Origin: the human T2T-CHM13v2.0 reference genome, Homo sapiens
Length of the DNA stretch: 64,000 bases
NCBI RefSeq assembly: GCF_009914755.1
Contig: NC_060928.1
Reading direction: 5' to 3' (one strand)
Every line of letters begins with the position of its first letter. Positions within the stretch are counted from its first letter, which is position 1. Positions 474 through 50,800 of the stretch are shown here, piece after piece. The position numbers and the translations under genes were made by a program. The notes beneath the pieces were generated by a model. That model searched no databases. It saw nothing but the letters and a program-made list of their open reading frames with translations, and had not been told where the DNA came from.

Positions 474-1490
474 ATGGGGAAAAAACAGAACAGAAAAACT
501 GGAAACTCTAAAATGCAGAGCGCCTCTCCTCCTCCAGAGGAACGCAGTTCCTCACCAGCAACGGAACAAAGCTGGATGGAGAATGATTTTGACGAGCTGA
601 GAGAAGAAGGCTTCAGACGATCAAATTACTCTGAGCTACGGGAGGACATTCAAACCAAAGGAAAAGAAGTTGAAAACTTTGAAAAAAATTTAGAAGAATG
701 TATAACTAGAATAACCAATACAGAGAAGTGCTTAAAGGAGCTGATGGAGCTGAAAACCAAGGCTCGAGCACTACGTGCAGAATGCAGAAGCCTCAGGAGC
801 TGATGAGATCAACTGGAAGAAAGGGTATCAGCAATGGAAGATGAAATGAATGAAATGAAGCAAGAAGGAAAGTTTAGAGAAAAAAGAATAAAAAGAAATG
901 AGCAAAGCCTACAAGAAATATGGGACTATGTGAAAAGACCAAATCTACGTCTGATTGGTGTACCTGAAACTGATGTGGAGAATGAAACCAAGTTGGAAAA
1001 CACTCTGCAGGATATTATCCAGGAGAACTTCCCCAATCTACCAAGGCAGGCCAACGTTCAGATTCAGGAAATACAGAGAACGCCACAAAGATACTCCTCG
1101 AGAAGAGCAACTCCAAGACACATAATTGTCAGATTCACCAAAGTTGAAATGAAGGAAAAAATGTTAAGGGCAGACAGAGAGAAAGGTCGGGTTACCCTCA
1201 AAGGGAAGCCCATCAGACTAACAGCGGATCTCTCGGCAGAAACCCTACAAGCAAGAAGAGAGTAGGGGCCAATATTCAACATTCTTAAAGGAAAGAATTT
1301 TCAACCCAGAATTTCATATCCAGCCAAACTAAGCTTCATAAGTGAAGGAGAAATAAAATACTTTACAGACAAGCAAATGCTGAGAGATTTTGTCACCACC
1401 AGGCCTGCCCTAAAAGAGCTCCTGAAGGAAGCGCTAAACATGGAAAGGAACAACCGGTACCAGCCGCTGCAAAATCATGCCAAAATGTAA
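474..1490 (+). pseudogene. ORF1: L1 ORF1p (coiled coil/RRM/CTD), disrupted
   Basis: MGKKQNRKTGNSK start, canonical 1017-nt span ending TAA at 1488-1490; premature stops at 801-803 (TGA) and 1263-1265 (TAG). Confidence 0.96.
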
Positions 1491-1526
1491 AGACCATCGA
1501 GACTAGGAAGAAACTGCATCAACTAA

Positions 1527-5381
<3,855 letters not shown>

Positions 5382-5564
5382 ACAATGAGATCACATGGAC
5401 ACAGGAAGGGGAATATCACACTCTGGGGACTGTGGTGGGGTGGGGGGAGGGGGGAGGGATAGCACTGGGAGATATACCTAATGCTAGATGACGCGTTAGT
5501 GGGTGCAGCGCACCAGCATGGCACATGTACCCTAAAACTTAAAGTATAATAAAAAAAAAAAAAA

Positions 5565-5906
5565 TGATGAGTTCATGTCCTTTGTAGGGACATGGATGAA
5601 ATTGGAAATCATCATTCTCAGTAAACTATCACAAGAACAAAAAGCCAAACACCCGCATATTGTTACTCATAGGTGGGAATTGAACAATGAGAACACATGG
5701 ACACAGGAAGGGGAACATCATACTCTGGGGACTGTTTCGGGGTGGGGGAGGGGGAGGGATAGCTTTAGGAGATATACCTAATGCTAAATGATGAGTTAAT
5801 GGGTGCAGCACACCAGCATGGCACATGTATACATATGTAACTAACCTGCACATTGTGCACATGTACCCTAAAACTTAAAGTATAATAATAATAAAATAAA
5901 AAAAAA
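5565..5906 (+). mobile_element. 3' end of a second, slightly older L1PA (about L1PA3-4)
   Basis: TGATGAGTTCATGTCCTTTGTAGGG through the ORF2 end, 3'UTR (GCTAAATGATGAGTTAATGGG variant) and its own A-rich tail. Confidence 0.93.
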
Positions 5907-41106: not shown

Positions 41107-41549
41107 CAGTAGTTTTCACTAATCCACAGGGGATATGTTCCAAGACTGAAACCAATAGTACCAAACCCTCTATATACTATATTTTTATCCCATATATATG
41201 TACCTATGATAAAGTTTGATTTATAAATTATGTACAGAAAAAGATTAACAATAATAATAAAATAATTATAACAATATATCGGCATGACTGCCTTTGCACT
41301 TTGGGGCCATTATTAAGTGAAATAAGGGCTACTTGAACACAAATATTGTGATACCGTGACAGTCAATCTCATAACTGAGACAGATACTAACGGTCTAATG
41401 GGCAATAGCGCATACAGTGTGGATGTACTAGACAAAGGGATGATTTCACACACCAGGTAGGATAGAGCAGGACTGCAGGAGATTGCGTTATACTACTCAG
41501 AAAGGAGTGCAATTTAAATCTTATGAATTGTTTATTTTTGGAATTTTTC
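41107..41549. mobile_element. MER44 (Tigger7-derived), left part
   Basis: TA|CAGTAG...ATCCACAGGGGATATGTTCCAAGAC start, running to GCAATTTAAATCTTATGAATTGTTTATTTTTGGAATTTTTC. Confidence 0.85.
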
Positions 41550-41776
41550 TTTTTTTTTCTTTTTTTTTATTATTATACTTTAAGTTTTAGGGTACATGTG
41601 CACATTGTGCAGGTTAGTTACATATGTATACATTTGCCATGCTGGTGTGCTGCACCCACTAACTCGTCATCTAGCATTAGGTATATCTCCTAATGCTATC
41701 CCTCCCCCGTCCCCCCACCCCACAACAGTCCCCAGAGTGTGATGTTCCCCTTCCTGTGTCCATGTGATCTCATTGT

Positions 41777-45632
<3,856 letters not shown>

Positions 45633-45680
45633 TTATTTTGCTCGTTAGTTGATGCAGTTTCTTCCTAGTCTCGATGGTCT

Positions 45681-46697
45681 TTACATTTTGGCATGATTTT
45701 GCAGTGGCTGGTACCGGTTGTTCCTTTCCATGTTGAGCGCTTCCTTCAGGAGCTCTTTTAGGGCAGGCCTGGTGGTGACAAAATCTCTCAGCATTTGCTT
45801 GTCTGTGAAGTATTTTATTTCTCCTTCACTTATGAAGCTTAGTTTGGCTGGATATGAAATTCTGGGTTGAAAACTCTTTTCTTTAAGAATGTTGAATATT
45901 GGCCCCCACTCTCATCTGGCTTGTAGGGTTTCTGCCGAGAGATCCACTGTTAGTCTGATGGGCTTCCCTTTGAGGGTAACCCGACCTTTCTCTCTGGCTG
46001 CCCTTAACATTTTTTCCTTCATTTCAACTTTGGTGAATCTGACAATTATGTGTCTTGGAGTTGCTCTTCTCGAGGAGTATCTTTGTGGCGTTCTCTGTAT
46101 TTCCTGAATCCGAATGTTGGCCTGCCTTGGTACATTGGGGAAGTTCTCCTGGATAATATCCTGCAGAGTGTTTTCCAACTTGGTTCCATTCTCCCCATCA
46201 CTTTCAGGTACATCAATTAGACGTAGATTTGGTCTTTTCACATAGTCCCATATTTCTTGGAGGCTTTGCTCATTTCTTTTTATTCTTTTTTCTCTAAACT
46301 TTCCTTCTTGCTTCATTTCATTCATTTCATCTTCCATTGCTGATGCCCTTTCTTCCAGTTGATCGCATCGGCTCCTGAGGCTTCTGCATTCTTCACGTAG
46401 TTCTCGAGCCTTGGCTTTCAGCTCCATCAGCTCCTTTAAGCACTTCTCTGTATTGGTTATTCTAGTTATATATTCTTCTAAATTTTTTTCAAAGTTTTCA
46501 ACTTCTTTGCCTTTGGTTTGAATGTCCTCCCGTAGCTCAGAGTAATTTGATCGTCTGAAGCCTTCTTCTCTCAGCTCGTCAAAGTCATTCTCCATCCAGC
46601 TTTGTTCCGTTGCTGGTGAGGAACTGTGTTCCTTTGGAGGAGGAGAGGCACTCTGCTTTTTAGAGTTTCCAGTTTTTCTGTTCTGTTTTTTCCCCAT
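45681..46697 (-). pseudogene. ORF1: L1 ORF1p with one premature stop
   Basis: ATG at 46697, canonical TAA at 45681-45683, premature TGA at 45912-45914. Confidence 0.95.
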
Positions 46698-47150
46698 CTT
46701 TGTGGTTTTATCCACTTTTGGTCTTTGATGACGGTGACGTAGAGATGGGTTTTTGGTGTGGATGTCCTTTCTGTTTGTTAGTTTTCCTTCTAACAGACAG
46801 GACCCTCAGCTGCAGGTCTGTTGGAATACCCTGCCGTGTGAGTGTCAGTGTGCCCCTGCTGGAGGGTGCCTCCCAGTTAGGCTGCTCGGGGGTCAGGGGT
46901 CAGGGACCCACTTGAGGAGGCAGTCTGCCCATTTTCAGATCTCCAGCTGCATACTGGGAGAACCACTGCTCTCTTCAAAGCTGTCAGACAGGGACATTTA
47001 AGTCTGCAGAGGTTACTGCTGTCTTTTTGTTTGTCTGTGCCCTGCCCCCAGAGGTGGAGCCTACAGAGGCAGGCAGGCCTCCTTGAGCTGTGGTGTGCTC
47101 CACCCAGTTTGAGCTTCTGGCTGCTTTGTTTACCTAAGCAAGCCTGGGCA

Positions 47151-47459
47151 ATGGCGGGCGCCCCTCCCCCAGCCTGGCTGCCACCTTGCAGTTTGATCTC
47201 AGACTGCTGTGCTAGCAATCAGCGAGACTCCGTGGGCGTAGGACCCTCCGAGCCAGGTGCGGGATATAATCTCGTGGTGCGCTGTTTTTTAAGCCCGTCA
47301 GAAAAGTACAGTATTTGGGTGAGAGTGATCCGATTTTCCAGGTGCCGTCCGTCACCCCTTTCTTTGATTAGGAAAGGGAACTCCCTGACCCCTTGCACTT
47401 CCCGAGTGAGGCAATGCCTCGCCCTGCTTCGGCTCGCGCACGGTGCGCGCACCCACTGA
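47151..47459 (+). CDS. ORF0: L1 antisense ORF0, open for 102 aa
   Basis: MAGAPPPAWLPPCSLISDCCASNQRDSVGVGPSEPG matches primate ORF0; good Kozak context GCAATGG. Confidence 0.75.
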   Translation: MAGAPPPAWLPPCSLISDCCASNQRDSVGVGPSEPGAGYNLVVRCFLSPSEKYSIWVRVIRFSRCRPSPLSLIRKGNSLTPCTSRVRQCLALLRLAHGARTH

Positions 47460-47580
47460 CCTGCGCCCACTGTCTGGCACTCCCTAGTGAGATGAACCCG
47501 GTACCTCAGATGGAAATGCAGAAATCACCCGTCTTCTGCGTCGCTCAGGCTGGGAGCTATAGACAGGAGCTGTTCCCATT

Positions 47581-47602
47581 CGGCCATCTTGGCTCCTCCC
47601 CC
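47581..47602 (-). promoter_or_regulatory. L1 internal promoter start with intact YY1 site
   Basis: CAAGATGGCCG on the minus strand. Confidence 0.85.
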
Positions 47603-47790
47603 TAGAGCAATGTAATTATAATAAGATATTTTAATACTTCAATTTCATTTCTCTGCTTCCAGGAAATCCTGGCGTCTTAGCTACGGGTCTGCCAGTCCCT
47701 GCAGGTCGCACAGCCACAGCAGCTGGGCCTGTAGGAGCAGAGTACAGAGGAGCAGTTGGGGGTCAGTTCTCTGTGAATGAAGACTAGATC
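47603..47790 (-). other. 188-nt 5' transduction: ZNF91-subfamily-like exon 1 (47646-47790) plus a 43-nt linker
   Basis: Lies inside the TSD GGAATTTTTC (41540-41549 / 47791-47800); minus strand reads CTCTGCTCCTACAGGCCCAGC...GACCTGCAGG...AGCTAAGACGCCAGGA...CCTGGAAGCAGAGAAATG. Confidence 0.82.
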
Positions 47791-47879
47791 GGAATTTTTC
47801 ACTTATTATTTCAGAGTACAGTTGACCATGGGTAACTAGAACTGCAGAAAGCAAAACAGCAGATAAGGGGGGACTACTG
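47791..47879. mobile_element. MER44, right part
   Basis: Continues the element broken at 41549; ends GATAAGGGGGGACTACTG|TA. Confidence 0.85.
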
Positions 47880-50800
47880 TACTGCAGATGTGACTTGAGC
47901 ATCTAAGAGAATATTTTCAGAGAGTCTGTGGTTGATCAAAAGATACATTTCAGAAATACGTAAGAATAGGAAGTTTGTGTTCTTTTAATAAACGGATGAT
48001 ATTGATATACAAAAGACTCATACCAAAATATAGTCCTATATAATTAATTCAAATTAAATATAGAATTGCCTGTTGTTATAGGCACTGGTGGGTAGAACTA
48101 AAATTTTCCTTTCTGTTAATGACAGAAAGGGTGGTCAATATGAAAGCAGTACCTCATTCTTTACTTTCTGGCAGATTTACAAACCAGTAAACATCACACC
48201 ACTATTCCTTTAGCACACACGTCCTGGCAGATTTTATTCCAAGAGACATATCTCATTTGAATCGAATATAAAAATTGTCCAAGCACATCAAATAGGGCAG
48301 GATGAAACTGTAGATTTTGAAGTGTGAGGTGAAGTGCAGTGTTTTAGACTTACATAAAAATAGAGAACTAGACCCTACTTTTATAAATAGCTTTATTTTG
48401 GCTAGAACAGCTTTCCAAAGAGTAGTTCCAGGGGACACATTTGCAGAGGGAGAAATGTGACTGTGCAATTCTGATCTAGGTGTGCAGGTGAACAGCAGGG
48501 ACACCCAAGGTTTCCAAATGGCATTGAAGGACTACCTAGGGTAAGACACCAACCACCTAGAAAATGGAACATTTCAAAGGCTAACTCCCTGACCTGCTTT
48601 ACTGAAAATATCAATAGCTGTTTTTGCCTAAACCTCAGCTGTGCCAGAATATATAAGGATGAGATTAAATTCTACATAAGGAGCAGAAAAATGAAAAGTG
48701 AGAAAGAAAAATCTCAACAGTGAAGAATAGGAAAAAAAAAAGAATTCACAGACCTCAAGTAAGTTGAAGAGTGAGTCTGAACAAAAAGAAGAGAGCTATT
48801 TAGCATGAGCTGTTTAAATCTCAATGAGACAATGAGTTTATAGCTCTTTAGTATGGAGCAATGCAACCCTGGCAGCAGGATACTCAAGAAGACCTAATGG
48901 GCCTCTCGGATTACTCCATGATTCAGAAGTCCTGTGTATCTGGTGTGTGTCCACAAGGGCTGGAACACATATGATGGGACAACCCAGCACAGCATTGCCT
49001 GGTCCCACATGTGAGTGAGGAAGAATGTGCCTGAAGATAATGAATCTCTATTTTTAAAATGTGAGATTTACTATTTGACTCCTAATTCTACTTTAGAAGT
49101 CTGCTTTTTTATTCTAGCCAGCATGTTTATTTTAATTCCTGGTATATTTTAGAAACATGACATTATTCTGAGGTAATAAATAAAGAGAGAGAGAGAGGGT
49201 GTGAAAAGACTGAGTTAGAAGAGTTTTCTGATGATTTGGTGAAGCTTCTGGAGAGGAGAATAGGGACTCCAAATATTGTCAAGATGCCTTTTGTATTGGA
49301 CTACTCAATAGGGCAATTGGTCATTTTCTTAGTGTCCTGCAGATTAATTCATACCGCTCTAGGTCCCAGGAAAGTAGGATCAAGTAGGCACTGCACTCTG
49401 CCTTTTGGTGTAACCACCCCCCTGACACACAGACACATACCTATAGTGGCATTCCAACCACTCTTCCTGAATCTGATTTTATCTTCTTGCAAGCATTTCT
49501 TCACATTGCAACCATAACACTGTTTAAAGAATGCACACCCAAACAGATCACCCATTGCTAGCTTAAGAAACGTTCTTTTCCATGGCTCTAAGTATGAAAT
49601 CCACTATCAGTAACATGAATCTGGCCAAGGCTTACCTCCTCAGCCACATGCTGCCCTTCTCTGCTCACTGTGCCTCAAATATAACTTCTTTTAGTGCTAC
49701 AAACTTCATCATAATTTTAAATATGTATTTATTTGAGAATGTATTATTTTAATATTTGTGTTTGCCACTAGGATCATAACATAACAATCCACTAGGATTC
49801 ATAACAATAAAGATCCTATATGTCTTATTCATTATGCTACTTGGAGGCAAAACAAAAATTTGATCCTAGGTTCCCTGCCTTCAACACCGTTGCACCTCTC
49901 TCCTCCCTCAGTTTCGAGAAATCAATTCTTTAAACTTGACTTTCAAGACATATTATCTGATGAATTCCCCTAGAATCCCAGCCCTCTGTTCTGGCTACCC
50001 CAATCTGATTGCCTTTTCACAAAGCAGGTTCTTCCCTATTTCCTTGTTCTTGCCTATGATCTTCTCATAACTTGGAATATTATGGATTGTTCAGGACTAA
50101 GATGATACTTTACTTCCCTTCCAAGCCTTCGCTATAAATTTTGATGAATTTTTATAGCACATTTGCTCAATTTGATATAGTATCATGTCATAGTTTTTCA
50201 TATTTATTATCTATCTTAACTTCTCATCTCAATTGGAAGCTACTTAAAGGTGAAATCCATGAAGTCTTATCATTTGTAAACCTGATGATTCCTAGTACAA
50301 TGCTGAGTAGTACATGATTGGCTGGTTTCATGAGAAACCTTCCCAGAGATGACCAAGTTCCTATCATTTCTCAACCCAAGGAGTGAAGCCTCATAGATCT
50401 CAGGCAAATCTGCCTTCCTGAAAAATAGATGTTTCTTTTTACACTGAGTTGTCCATGTGAACCTCCCCCTGAGTTCAAAGGAGAACACATCCAGCATGCT
50501 GGGCGTCCAGAAGTTTCTTTTGAGCAAAAACATTTTGGATTTTTAGTTTCATAGTATATCTTGCCTAAAGCTCAAATAATAGAAAAAGGAGAAAAAACAC
50601 TGTTAAGGTATCTGACAAAATTTTACTCAGGCCAGCTGTAAAAACAGTACATGCTGCTTTCTAAGGGACACACATCTGAGTGCATGCCTAGGAATAATGC
50701 TGCATAATTCTAAGAACATAATCTCATGACTGGTCCAAATATATCAGAGGGCTCTGTTCTATAAATGTTTAAAAATGTAAACTCAGATGCCTCTAATTCT

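What the first reader, a model, noticed from the sequence alone, without database searches (positions are those of the whole stretch)
47603..47800. Full-length L1 carrying a spliced KRAB-ZNF (ZNF91-subfamily-like) first exon as a 5' transduction
Seen: the L1 interrupts a MER44, but MER44 does not resume at the L1 5' end (47602). It resumes at 47791 with the 10-bp TSD GGAATTTTTC (copy at 41540-41549), so 188 extra nt were inserted with the L1. On the L1 sense strand they read GATCTAGTCTTCATTCAC...CTCTGCTCCTACAGGCCCAGCTGCTGTGGCTGTGCGACCTGCAGGGACTGGCAGACCCGTAGCTAAGACGCCAGGATTTCCTGGAAGCAGAGAAATG|AAATTGAAG...GCTCTA|GGGGGAGGAG. Recalled knowledge: exon 1 of ZNF91-subfamily genes has this motif series and ends at AGAAATG followed by a GT donor. 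Here the similarity stops exactly at AGAAATG with no GT, like a splice junction. Inference: a KZFP promoter transcribed exon 1, spliced it to a cryptic acceptor 43 nt upstream of a sense intronic L1, and the chimeric mRNA retrotransposed. The first G (47790) may be cap-derived. This would be an L1 using the promoter of the gene family that includes its repressor ZNF93.
Basis: partly seen in the sequence, partly recalled or inferred. Interest (0 to 1): 0.9.

Follow-up and report, generated by a model that had tools for sequence, protein, structure and literature searches.

The report
L1 retrotransposon carrying a spliced zinc-finger exon
A full-length, now dead L1 retrotransposon on human chromosome 4 was copied in together with the spliced first exon of a zinc-finger pseudogene from chromosome 10, a kind of L1 and gene chimera catalogued in 2025-26, although this copy is not in that catalogue.

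Summary
A full-length L1 lies on the minus strand (41569-47602, poly(A) 41550-41568). It and 188 extra 5' bases sit inside one perfect 10-bp target-site duplication, within an old repeat that is contiguous in other copies.

Bases 1-145 of the tag are 97% identical to exon 1 of a KRAB zinc-finger pseudogene at CHM13 chr10:43.245 Mb, probably LOC441666. A GT donor follows the exon there. The next 42 bases map 26.9 kb downstream on the same strand, directly after a CAG acceptor. So the tag is a spliced RNA copy.

One unmatched A then joins the first base of the L1.

The kind is already in print: Law and Burns (Cell Genomics 2026) list 17 such chimeras, including a RAP1GDS1 case with the source L1 still present and a ZNF681 exon-1 case. 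This locus is not among them.

I also found two further unlisted chimeras of a ZNF91-type exon 1 with an L1, at chr6:25.07 Mb and chr4:155.45 Mb. All carry intron-derived linkers rather than exon 2. That favours cis read-through from a lost intronic L1 (about 0.6) over template switching (about 0.28).

Verdict: new member of a known kind.

The parts
41380..41539 (.).
   Evidence: more than 1000 candidate copies, 75-82% identity among the 39 scored besides the window's own; contiguous with the right part in 22 of the 23 copies that have both flanks.
41540..41549 (+). Target-site duplication, copy at the L1 3' side (GGAATTTTTC)
   Evidence: identical 10-mer at 47791-47800; present once at this point in other copies of the host repeat.
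41550..41568 (-). L1 poly(A) tail (19 nt, one G on the sense strand)
   Evidence: read directly.
41569..47602 (-). Full-length L1, about 6,034 nt, L1PA3-like (inferred). The 5'UTR is 46698-47602 (905 nt). ORF1 starts at 46697 and has an in-frame stop after residue 261. ORF2 is in at least three pieces (43782-45617, 42643-43788, 42182-42601).
   Evidence: Pfam Transposase_22, Tnp_22_trimer, Exo_endo_phos, RVT_1; 39 relatives at 92-96% identity, collinear over the first 900 nt.
47603..47603 (-). One base (sense A) at the junction that matches neither the source locus nor the L1
   Evidence: all 10 genomic copies continue CT.. or TT.. after GCTCT or GCTTT.
47604..47645 (-). 42-nt piece copied from an intron of the chr10 zinc-finger pseudogene (chr10:43218447-43218488), starting exactly at a CAG acceptor
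   Evidence: 40 of 42 bases identical to chr10; 41 of 42 to six pericentromeric paralogues, 39-40 of 42 to the other three. There is no GT at its 3' end in any of the 10 copies.
47646..47790 (-). 145-nt copy of exon 1 of the chr10 ZNF91-type pseudogene (chr10:43245398-43245543), from the inferred transcription start to the splice donor
   Evidence: 4 substitutions and 1 single-base indel; the source is followed by GTGAGT.
47791..47800 (+). Target-site duplication, copy at the 5' side of the tag
47801..47885 (.). Right part of the host repeat

Best explanation
This is a spliced 5' transduction, made in cis.

Proposed sequence of events: a full-length L1 once sat in sense orientation in the last intron of a transcribed ZNF91-type KRAB zinc-finger pseudogene at 10q11.21 (probably LOC441666). 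It lay 42-43 nt downstream of a cryptic CAG acceptor. Transcription from the pseudogene's promoter produced exon 1. Exon 1 was spliced, skipping the KRAB exon, to that acceptor. The transcript then ran through the whole L1 to the L1 polyadenylation site. The L1 proteins acted on this RNA in cis and inserted it by target-primed reverse transcription into an old repeat on chr4, roughly 10-20 Myr ago. The source L1 never became fixed, or was lost, and is absent from CHM13. The offspring carries only 188 nt of transcribed tag, left no further copies, and is now dead.

Shown: a single insertion event; the RNA (spliced) origin of the tag; its source gene, donor and acceptor.
Inferred: the source L1 and the read-through.
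For: 1. One TSD encloses the tag, the L1 and the poly(A) tail.
2. The exon-1 copy is 97% identical to the chr10 locus and ends at that locus's GT donor. The next 42 nt start at a CAG acceptor 26.9 kb downstream on the same strand.
3. The chr10 locus holds a degenerate KRAB box (Pfam PF01352, E 7e-11) and frameshifted C2H2 arrays.
4. The tag joins the canonical first base of a full-length L1. That is expected with near certainty if the L1 lay next to the acceptor.
5. There is no GT at the break in any of the 10 genomic copies of the 42-mer. So exon-to-L1 trans-splicing at this junction is not supported.
6. A proven precedent has the same anatomy. In the RAP1GDS1/L1PA2 case, a cryptic acceptor lies 15 bp upstream of an intronic source L1 that is still present (Law and Burns; sections read; Table S5).
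7. Class argument: all three ZNF91-type exon-1/L1 chimeras examined here show exon 1, then a short non-exon-2 linker, then the L1 5' end. These are the window, chr6:25.07 Mb and chr4:155.45 Mb. By my reading of Table S5 the tag of the published ZNF681 case also does not continue into the KRAB-A exon, although its L1 is not at the canonical first base.
8. By contrast, all three ordinary processed pseudogenes of the family found in the same search carry the canonical exon 1 to exon 2 (KRAB-A) junction. A reverse transcriptase jumping onto ZNF RNA should mostly have met canonical mRNA.
Against: 1. No L1 abuts the 42-mer at chr10 or at any of its 9 paralogues.
2. The 50 kb of the chr10 gene contains no L1 with an intact 5' end. 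The 8 alignments found do not reach below L1 position 3190.
3. There is no TSD-like scar at the chr10 site.
4. One unmatched base lies at the junction.
5. Law and Burns report that 15 of their 17 source genes also lack an intronic L1, and they prefer recombination in trans.
6. Whether the cryptic acceptor is used without an L1 is unknown, because no transcript data were available here.
7. The class argument rests on few loci, found by a targeted and incomplete search.
Confidence: 0.6

Rival explanations
1. Template switch, or another RNA-level recombination in trans. While copying an unrelated full-length L1 RNA at the chr4 target, ORF2p reached the L1 5' end, added one untemplated base, and jumped to an internal position of an already spliced LOC441666 transcript (exon 1 joined to a cryptic exon). 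It then copied that transcript to its cap. No L1 ever sat in the chr10 gene.
For: No source L1 is present in CHM13 at chr10 or at the paralogues. One unmatched base lies at the junction, as is often seen at template jumps (established knowledge of non-LTR reverse transcriptases, recalled). The tag reaches what looks like the transcription start. A plausible donor (AAT|GTGAGA) lies about 50 nt beyond the break at the source, so a free-standing cryptic exon is possible. Law and Burns favour trans mechanisms for the 15 of 17 cases without an intronic L1.
Against: The switch would have to start at exactly the first L1 base and land inside a rare non-canonical isoform. None of the KZFP/L1 chimeras looked at carries canonical exon 2, whereas 3 of 3 processed pseudogenes of the family do. 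In U6/L1-type chimeras attributed to switching or ligation, the L1 part is usually 5'-truncated (Law and Burns, passages); here it is full-length. There is no microhomology at the break.
Confidence: 0.28
2. Trans-splicing or RNA ligation of a ZNF pre-mRNA fragment to the L1 RNA before reverse transcription. This is the model Law and Burns prefer for cases where exons end at donors.
For: The architecture (first exon in sense orientation, near full-length L1, long downstream intron of 26.9 kb) fits the class they describe.
Against: The tag does not end at a splice donor: GCTCT is followed by CT or TT in all 10 genomic copies. L1 position 1 has no acceptor. The one splice junction that is present is an ordinary cis junction within one gene. 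A capped L1 5' end is not a ligase substrate (established knowledge, recalled).
Confidence: 0.07
3. Two separate events: an L1 insertion, and an independent insertion or capture of a ZNF cDNA fragment at its 5' end. Alternatively, the 188 nt belong to the host repeat.
For: None found.
Against: There is no poly(A) or second TSD between the tag and the L1. One perfect TSD encloses both. None of 29 other copies of the host repeat holds the tag.
Confidence: 0.02

Closest known systems
RAP1GDS1/L1PA2 chimeric insertions (Law and Burns, Cell Genomics 2026, PMC13174262; preprint 10.1101/2025.02.02.635956)
   Same: Upstream gene exons are spliced to a cryptic acceptor a few bases upstream of an intronic L1 (15 bp there, 42-43 nt here). 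The whole RNA is retrotransposed with a TSD and poly(A). Sections and Table S5 read.
   Different: There the source L1 is still in the intron, it has a spliced-out defective 5'UTR, and it produced at least two independent offspring. Here the source L1 is not found, the L1 has a complete 905-nt 5'UTR, and there is a single copy.
The other first-exon/L1 chimeras of the same paper (MAP3K13, FHIT, FHIP1A, SATB1-AS1 and others; 17 in all), including ZNF681 exon 1 with an L1 at hg38 chr3:94.44 Mb
   Same: First exon in sense orientation, near full-length L1, TSD, and no L1 at the source gene in 15 of 17. The ZNF681 case also uses a ZNF91-family exon 1 followed by a non-canonical piece.
   Different: This locus is not among the 17 rows of Table S5. 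Its chr4 rows are at 16.9, 107.5 and 189.1 Mb in hg38, with other genes and other TSDs. Several of their tags end exactly at donors; this one does not. ZNF681 occurs 0 times in the paper's main text.
SVA_F1 (MAST2 exon 1 fused to SVA)
   Same: A host first exon is spliced onto a non-LTR retrotransposon and mobilised with it. I saw only titles and abstracts in the listing; the details are recalled.
   Different: SVA_F1 became a propagating subfamily whose tag carries CpG-island promoter activity. This tag has 3 CpGs and no offspring.
U6/L1 and other chimeric retrogenes ascribed to template switching or RNA ligation
   Same: A cellular RNA copy lies 5' of an L1 in sense orientation within one TSD (passages; listing).
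   Different: In those, the L1 part is mostly 5'-truncated and the partner is a small abundant RNA. Here the L1 is full-length and the partner is a spliced, non-canonical RNA polymerase II transcript.
Classical unspliced L1 5' transduction (read-through from an upstream promoter)
   Same: Extra 5' flanking sequence is co-mobilised with a full-length L1.
   Different: Here the extra sequence is discontinuous at the source, with 26.9 kb removed by splicing.

Membership tests
mRNA/lncRNA-5'-L1 chimeric insertion (Law and Burns class) | One TPRT event: a TSD encloses the non-L1 part and the L1, with poly(A) at the L1 3' end | tested here: met
   TSD 10 of 10, 19-nt A tail, host repeat contiguous elsewhere.
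mRNA/lncRNA-5'-L1 chimeric insertion (Law and Burns class) | The non-L1 part maps to the start of a unique transcript, in sense orientation to the L1 | tested here: met
   97% identity to chr10 exon 1, same orientation as the L1.
mRNA/lncRNA-5'-L1 chimeric insertion (Law and Burns class) | The mapped pieces are joined at splice sites (RNA origin) | tested here: met
   GTGAGT follows exon 1 and CAG precedes the 42-mer, 26.9 kb apart.
mRNA/lncRNA-5'-L1 chimeric insertion (Law and Burns class) | Tag and L1 arrive at the same time in multi-species alignments | not testable with these tools
   No primate genomes or alignments were held.
Cis-spliced 5' transduction from an intronic source L1 (RAP1GDS1 type) | A source L1 abuts the linker at the source locus | tested here: not met
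   no L1 5' end at chr10 or the 9 paralogues in CHM13. Other haplotypes and species were not testable.
Cis-spliced 5' transduction from an intronic source L1 (RAP1GDS1 type) | A cryptic acceptor lies a short distance upstream of the L1 5' end, with no donor at the L1 junction | tested here: met
Template-switch chimeric retrogene (U6/L1 type) | The L1 part is usually 5'-truncated, and the junction falls at an arbitrary L1 position | tested here: not met
   the junction is at the first base of a full-length L1.
Template-switch chimeric retrogene (U6/L1 type) | Untemplated bases or microhomology at the junction | tested here: inconclusive
   one unmatched A, which either model allows.
ZNF91-subfamily KRAB zinc-finger gene (source of the tag) | Exon 1 ends in ATG plus a GT donor; KRAB-A exon; C2H2 array; similarity to the chr19p12 and chr7q11.21 cluster genes | tested here: met
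   The frames are broken, so it is a pseudogene. The name LOC441666 ('ZNF91 pseudogene') rests plus a recalled hg19 coordinate for RET exon 2.
L1PA3 lacking the 129-bp ZNF93 site | Diagnostic positions against subfamily consensus sequences; 5'UTR without the 129-bp segment | tested here: inconclusive
   The 5'UTR is 905 nt, the body about 6,034 nt, and relatives are 92-96% identical. This fits the deleted form described in PMC5860796 and PMC7110667 (passages). No reference consensus was available.
MER44 (host repeat) | Match to the family consensus | not testable with these tools
   No repeat library. One search shows only that it is an old, high-copy repeat.

The most novel reading that the evidence does not exclude
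First exons of ZNF91-family KRAB zinc-finger genes are recurrent 5' partners of full-length L1s.

There are at least four independent events, involving L1 families of different ages:
- the published ZNF681 case on chr3;
- this locus;
- chr6:25.07 Mb, with a 14 of 15 TSD;
- chr4:155.45 Mb.

Each has exon 1 spliced into intron-derived sequence that leads straight into the L1.

If this is a real enrichment, L1s lodged in introns of the gene family that evolves to silence them were repeatedly expressed and mobilised from those genes' germline or early-embryo promoters. That would be a route around repression aimed at the L1's own 5'UTR.
Probability: 0.3. Interest if true: 0.7.

Novelty: new member of a known kind. 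Interest (0 to 1): 0.4.

Why it matters
This is a clean, fully resolved example of a host promoter and splice donor expressing and mobilising an autonomous L1. The class was first catalogued in 2025-26 with only 17 human cases. The MSA-based catalogue missed this locus and the two further KZFP cases found here, so it is probably incomplete.

The anatomy here bears on the open question in that paper of cis read-through versus trans recombination. There is a cis splice into a cryptic acceptor, then a run into L1 base 1 with no donor at the break. Processed pseudogenes of the same gene family provide the contrast.

If the recurrence in ZNF91-type genes proves to be an enrichment, it links L1 mobilisation to the expression of its own repressor family.

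For genome annotation, the tag also marks the transcription start and a cryptic exon of a pericentromeric pseudogene as they were more than 10 Myr ago.

Tried and rejected
- Host-repeat origin of the 188 nt is rejected: 0 of 29 other copies hold it.
- A family of tagged L1s is rejected for CHM13. Only the window itself matches more than 150 of the 188 nt (31 matches, made up of 1 self, 1 chr10 exon 1, 19 exon-1 paralogues and 10 copies of the 42-mer).
- I looked for a source L1 at the 10 copies of the 42-mer and across chr10:43,196,000-43,245,999. Only 5'-truncated fragments were found.
- Cap-derived first G: not needed, because the G is templated at the source.
- Exact 16-mer TSD search for the chr6 chimera: the word belongs to a repeat (161 hits against 16 in the control) and gave no second copy nearby. 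Fetching the L1 3' end then showed a 14 of 15 TSD.
- For the chr4:155.45 Mb chimera, the first stretch fetched was an older L1 and not the 3' end. The joined view shows an L1 about 5.6 kb long that is collinear with the window's L1 over positions 1314-5834 at 70% identity. The only candidate TSD is a weak A/T-rich 12 of 15, so I do not count this TSD as shown.
- Jacobs et al. 2014 could not be opened under the PMC id I recalled. The 129-bp story is taken from passages of two later papers.
- Literature searches for earlier descriptions of zinc-finger exon/L1 chimeras returned only Law and Burns. A search phrased around 5' transduction found nothing, because the prime sign cannot be searched.
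- A systematic genome-wide count of KZFP exon-1/L1 chimeras was not feasible.

Full report
**What is in the window**

The plus strand carries GGAATTTTTC at 41540-41549 and again at 47791-47800. Between the two copies, read on the minus strand from 5' to 3', lie:
- 188 nt of non-repeat sequence (47790 down to 47603);
- a full-length L1 beginning with the canonical GGGGGAGGAGCC at 47602 and ending at 41569;
- a 19-nt A tail (41568-41550).

Pfam confirms the L1. The ORF1 piece matches Transposase_22 (E 2e-60) and its trimerisation domain. The ORF2 pieces match Exo_endo_phos and RVT_1. ORF1 has an in-frame stop after residue 261, and ORF2 is split into at least three frames, so the element is dead.

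The 5'UTR is 905 nt. In a search with the first 900 nt, 39 other genomic L1s were scored out of 5,617 candidates. They were 92-96% identical and collinear with the query. Together with a body of about 6,034 nt, this fits an L1PA3-type element of the form that has lost the 129-bp ZNF93-bound segment. That form is described in passages of PMC5860796 and PMC7110667. I could not classify the element against reference consensus sequences, so the subfamily is inferred.

**Is it one insertion?**

I fetched 29 other genomic copies of the flanking old repeat and aligned both window flanks to them.
- 23 of the 29 matched both flanks.
- In 22 of those 23 the flanks are contiguous, with a projected gap of -2 to +1 when one TSD copy is counted. 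The other one gave -11.
- 6 of the 29 lacked a right-flank match.
- None of the 29 contains the 188 nt.

The TSD is therefore a true duplication of a single target, and the 188 nt came in with the L1. The name MER44 could not be tested.

**Where the 188 nt come from**

A search of the window's own assembly, CHM13, gave 31 matches.
- Only the window itself covers the whole tag, so there are no sibling or offspring copies.
- Tag bases 1-145 match chr10:43245398-43245543 (minus strand) with 4 substitutions and one 1-nt indel. At that locus the match is followed by GTGAGT.
- A further 19 matches at 73-82% identity are exon-1 copies. Seventeen lie in the chr19:20-24 Mb and chr7:65.6-66.6 Mb zinc-finger clusters. 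The other two are at chr4:155.45 Mb and chr16:32.26 Mb.
- In 18 of 18 genomic paralogues examined, the exon ends ...AAATG or ...AAGTG and is followed by GTGAG.
- Tag bases 146-187 match chr10:43218447-43218488, 26.9 kb downstream on the same strand. They follow directly after a T-rich tract and CAG.
- The same 42-mer occurs in nine pericentromeric paralogues on chr2, 9, 13, 14, 18, 21 and 22. These lack the 97% exon 1.

The tag is therefore a cDNA copy of a transcript in which exon 1 was spliced to a cryptic acceptor deep in the same gene.

**The source gene**

The chr10 locus has, in order on the minus strand:
- exon 1;
- a degenerate KRAB-A exon near 43,233,000 (Pfam KRAB, E 7e-11);
- the cryptic acceptor;
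- C2H2 finger arrays at 43,216,000-43,213,000, spread over several frames and carrying stops;
- (GGAAT)n-type satellite.

It is a ZNF91-type pseudogene at the 10q11.21 pericentromere. It is probably LOC441666, for these reasons:
- One paper places a 'nc_exon/nc_intron' methylation region of LOC441666 at hg19 chr10:42,862,851-42,863,619 (passage).
- Another lists it beside ZNF33B, ZNF37B, BMS1 and RET (passage).
- The RET CLD1 exon lies at CHM13 chr10:43,977,977.
- With my recalled hg19 position of RET exon 2, and assuming collinearity, the offset places that methylation region over the exon 1 found here.

The gene name and the RET coordinate are recalled, not computed.

**The junction with the L1**

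After the 42-mer, the ten genomic copies read GCTCT or GCTTT followed by CT or TT. The window reads GCTCT, then one A, then L1 base 1. Three points follow:
- There is no GT at the break.
- None of the ten loci has an L1 5' end next to it.
- Across chr10:43,196,000-43,245,999, the window's L1 aligns only to 5'-truncated fragments. There are 8 alignments, and none reaches below L1 position 3190.

**What is known**

Law and Burns (preprint 2025; Cell Genomics 2026) describe exactly this kind. I read results sections 24 and 25 of the preprint, passages of the published text, and all of Table S5. Their findings:
- 17 human L1 insertions carry mRNA or lncRNA sequence at the 5' end.
- Most involve the first exon in sense orientation, and most of the L1s are near full-length.
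- 15 of the 17 have no L1 at the source gene.
- One lineage (RAP1GDS1) has the source L1PA2 still in the intron, 15 bp downstream of a cryptic acceptor.

Their table also holds a ZNF681 exon-1/L1 chimera on chr3. 'ZNF681' occurs 0 times in the main text. The present locus is not among the 17 rows. Their chr4 rows lie at 16.9, 107.5 and 189.1 Mb, with other genes and other TSDs. Two further literature searches found no other description.

**Found in passing, and relevant to the mechanism**

Two dispersed copies of ZNF91-type exon 1 turned out to be further chimeras.

At chr6:25.07 Mb:
- Exon 1 is followed by a 78-nt piece.
- In many family members that piece lies 1-1.6 kb into intron 1, after an AG and with no GT at its end. 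It gave 21 genomic matches, and 6 were inspected.
- Then come two extra bases and the 5' end of an older full-length L1.
- The L1 3' end is followed by a 14 of 15 copy of the 15 nt that precede the tag.

At chr4:155.45 Mb:
- An exon 1 (up to 92% identical to chr19 copies) is followed by 27 nt.
- Then comes the common 5' end of a high-copy older L1 family.
- The element runs about 5.6 kb.
- Its TSD is only a weak 12 of 15 in A/T-rich sequence.

Neither locus is in Table S5.

Three other dispersed copies (chr9:35.17, chr12:57.94 and chr22:17.53 Mb) are ordinary processed pseudogenes with the canonical exon 1 to KRAB-A exon junction.

**Mechanism**

I favour cis read-through from a lost intronic source L1, at about 0.6. 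The reasons:
- The junction is at exactly L1 base 1.
- The break has no donor.
- The anatomy matches the proven RAP1GDS1 case.
- In every KZFP chimera seen, the sequence after exon 1 is intron-derived rather than exon 2. The retrotransposed mRNAs of the same family, by contrast, are canonically spliced.

A polymorphic source L1 that was never fixed would leave no scar. That is compatible with the clean chr10 site.

The main rival, at about 0.28, is a template jump from the L1 5' end onto a rare spliced isoform. It is supported by the missing source L1 and by the single unmatched base. Trans-splicing or ligation at this junction (about 0.07) lacks the required splice signals. Two separate insertions are excluded by the single TSD.

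**Age**

There are 4 substitutions in 145 nt against the source, or 6 in 187 when the 42-mer is included. With the usual primate neutral rates (recalled), this suggests very roughly 10-20 Myr, with wide error. That is consistent with an L1PA3-like element.

**Limits**
- No primate genomes, human pangenome, transcript annotation for chr10, RNA data or repeat library were available.
- The search for further KZFP chimeras was targeted and incomplete: only 40 of 90 candidates were scored.
- The comparison with processed pseudogenes is biased, because most processed pseudogenes are 5'-truncated and so lack exon 1.
- The PDF supplements of the key paper could not be read.

**Verdict**

The locus is a new, unlisted member of a recently described kind. 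It also offers a modestly novel lead: ZNF91-type first exons recur as 5' partners of L1.

Noticed in passing
L066 and L070 (CHM13 chr6:25,072,553-25,079,235): A second, unlisted KZFP/L1 chimera. A ZNF91-type exon 1 is followed by a 78-nt intron-1 piece, 2 extra bases and an older full-length L1. The flanking 15-mers AAAATTTTGCAAACT and AAAATTTTTCAAACT agree at 14 of 15 positions.
   Followed up: yes
L003, L072 and L071 (CHM13 chr4:155,446,480-155,452,214, minus strand): A third candidate. An exon 1 (92% identical to a chr19:20.04 Mb copy) is followed by 27 nt and the 5' end of an older, high-copy L1 family about 5.6 kb long. The only candidate TSD is a weak 12 of 15 in A/T-rich sequence.
   Followed up: partly
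L067 (chr12:57.94 Mb), L068 (chr9:35.17 Mb), L069 (chr22:17.53 Mb): Ordinary processed pseudogenes of ZNF91-family mRNAs with the canonical exon 1 to KRAB-A exon junction. They served as a contrast to the chimeras.
   Followed up: partly
L008:433-510, L031:7696-7772, L012:2889-2974, L014:2574-2645, L005:2845-2921, L028:2547-2621: A segment of about 78 nt, 1-1.6 kb into intron 1, is conserved across ZNF91-family genes including the chr10 pseudogene. It is preceded by TTTAG. It may be an alternative or cryptic exon start that is used in the chr6 chimera.
   Followed up: partly
L017-L022, L025-L027 (chr22, 21, 18, 14, 13, 2, 9): The intron segment holding the cryptic acceptor and the 42-mer is duplicated at 93-98% identity in nine pericentromeric or ancestral-centromere regions. 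These lack the 97% exon 1, so they are segmental duplicates of the 3' part of the chr10 pseudogene.
   Followed up: no
window 46774-47338: The RefSeq 'enhancer' feature in the hub's table lies wholly inside the 5'UTR of this L1 (about element positions 265-829), not in the tag.
   Followed up: no
window 47603-47638: NCBI's repeat mask runs 36 nt past the L1 5' end into the A/T-rich 42-mer. This could help explain why repeat-annotation-based pipelines did not separate the tag from the L1.
   Followed up: no
L016 (chr16:32.26 Mb): A genomic (unspliced, GT-followed) ZNF91-type exon 1 copy with a CpG-rich flank lies outside the chr19 and chr7 clusters. It was not identified further.
   Followed up: no
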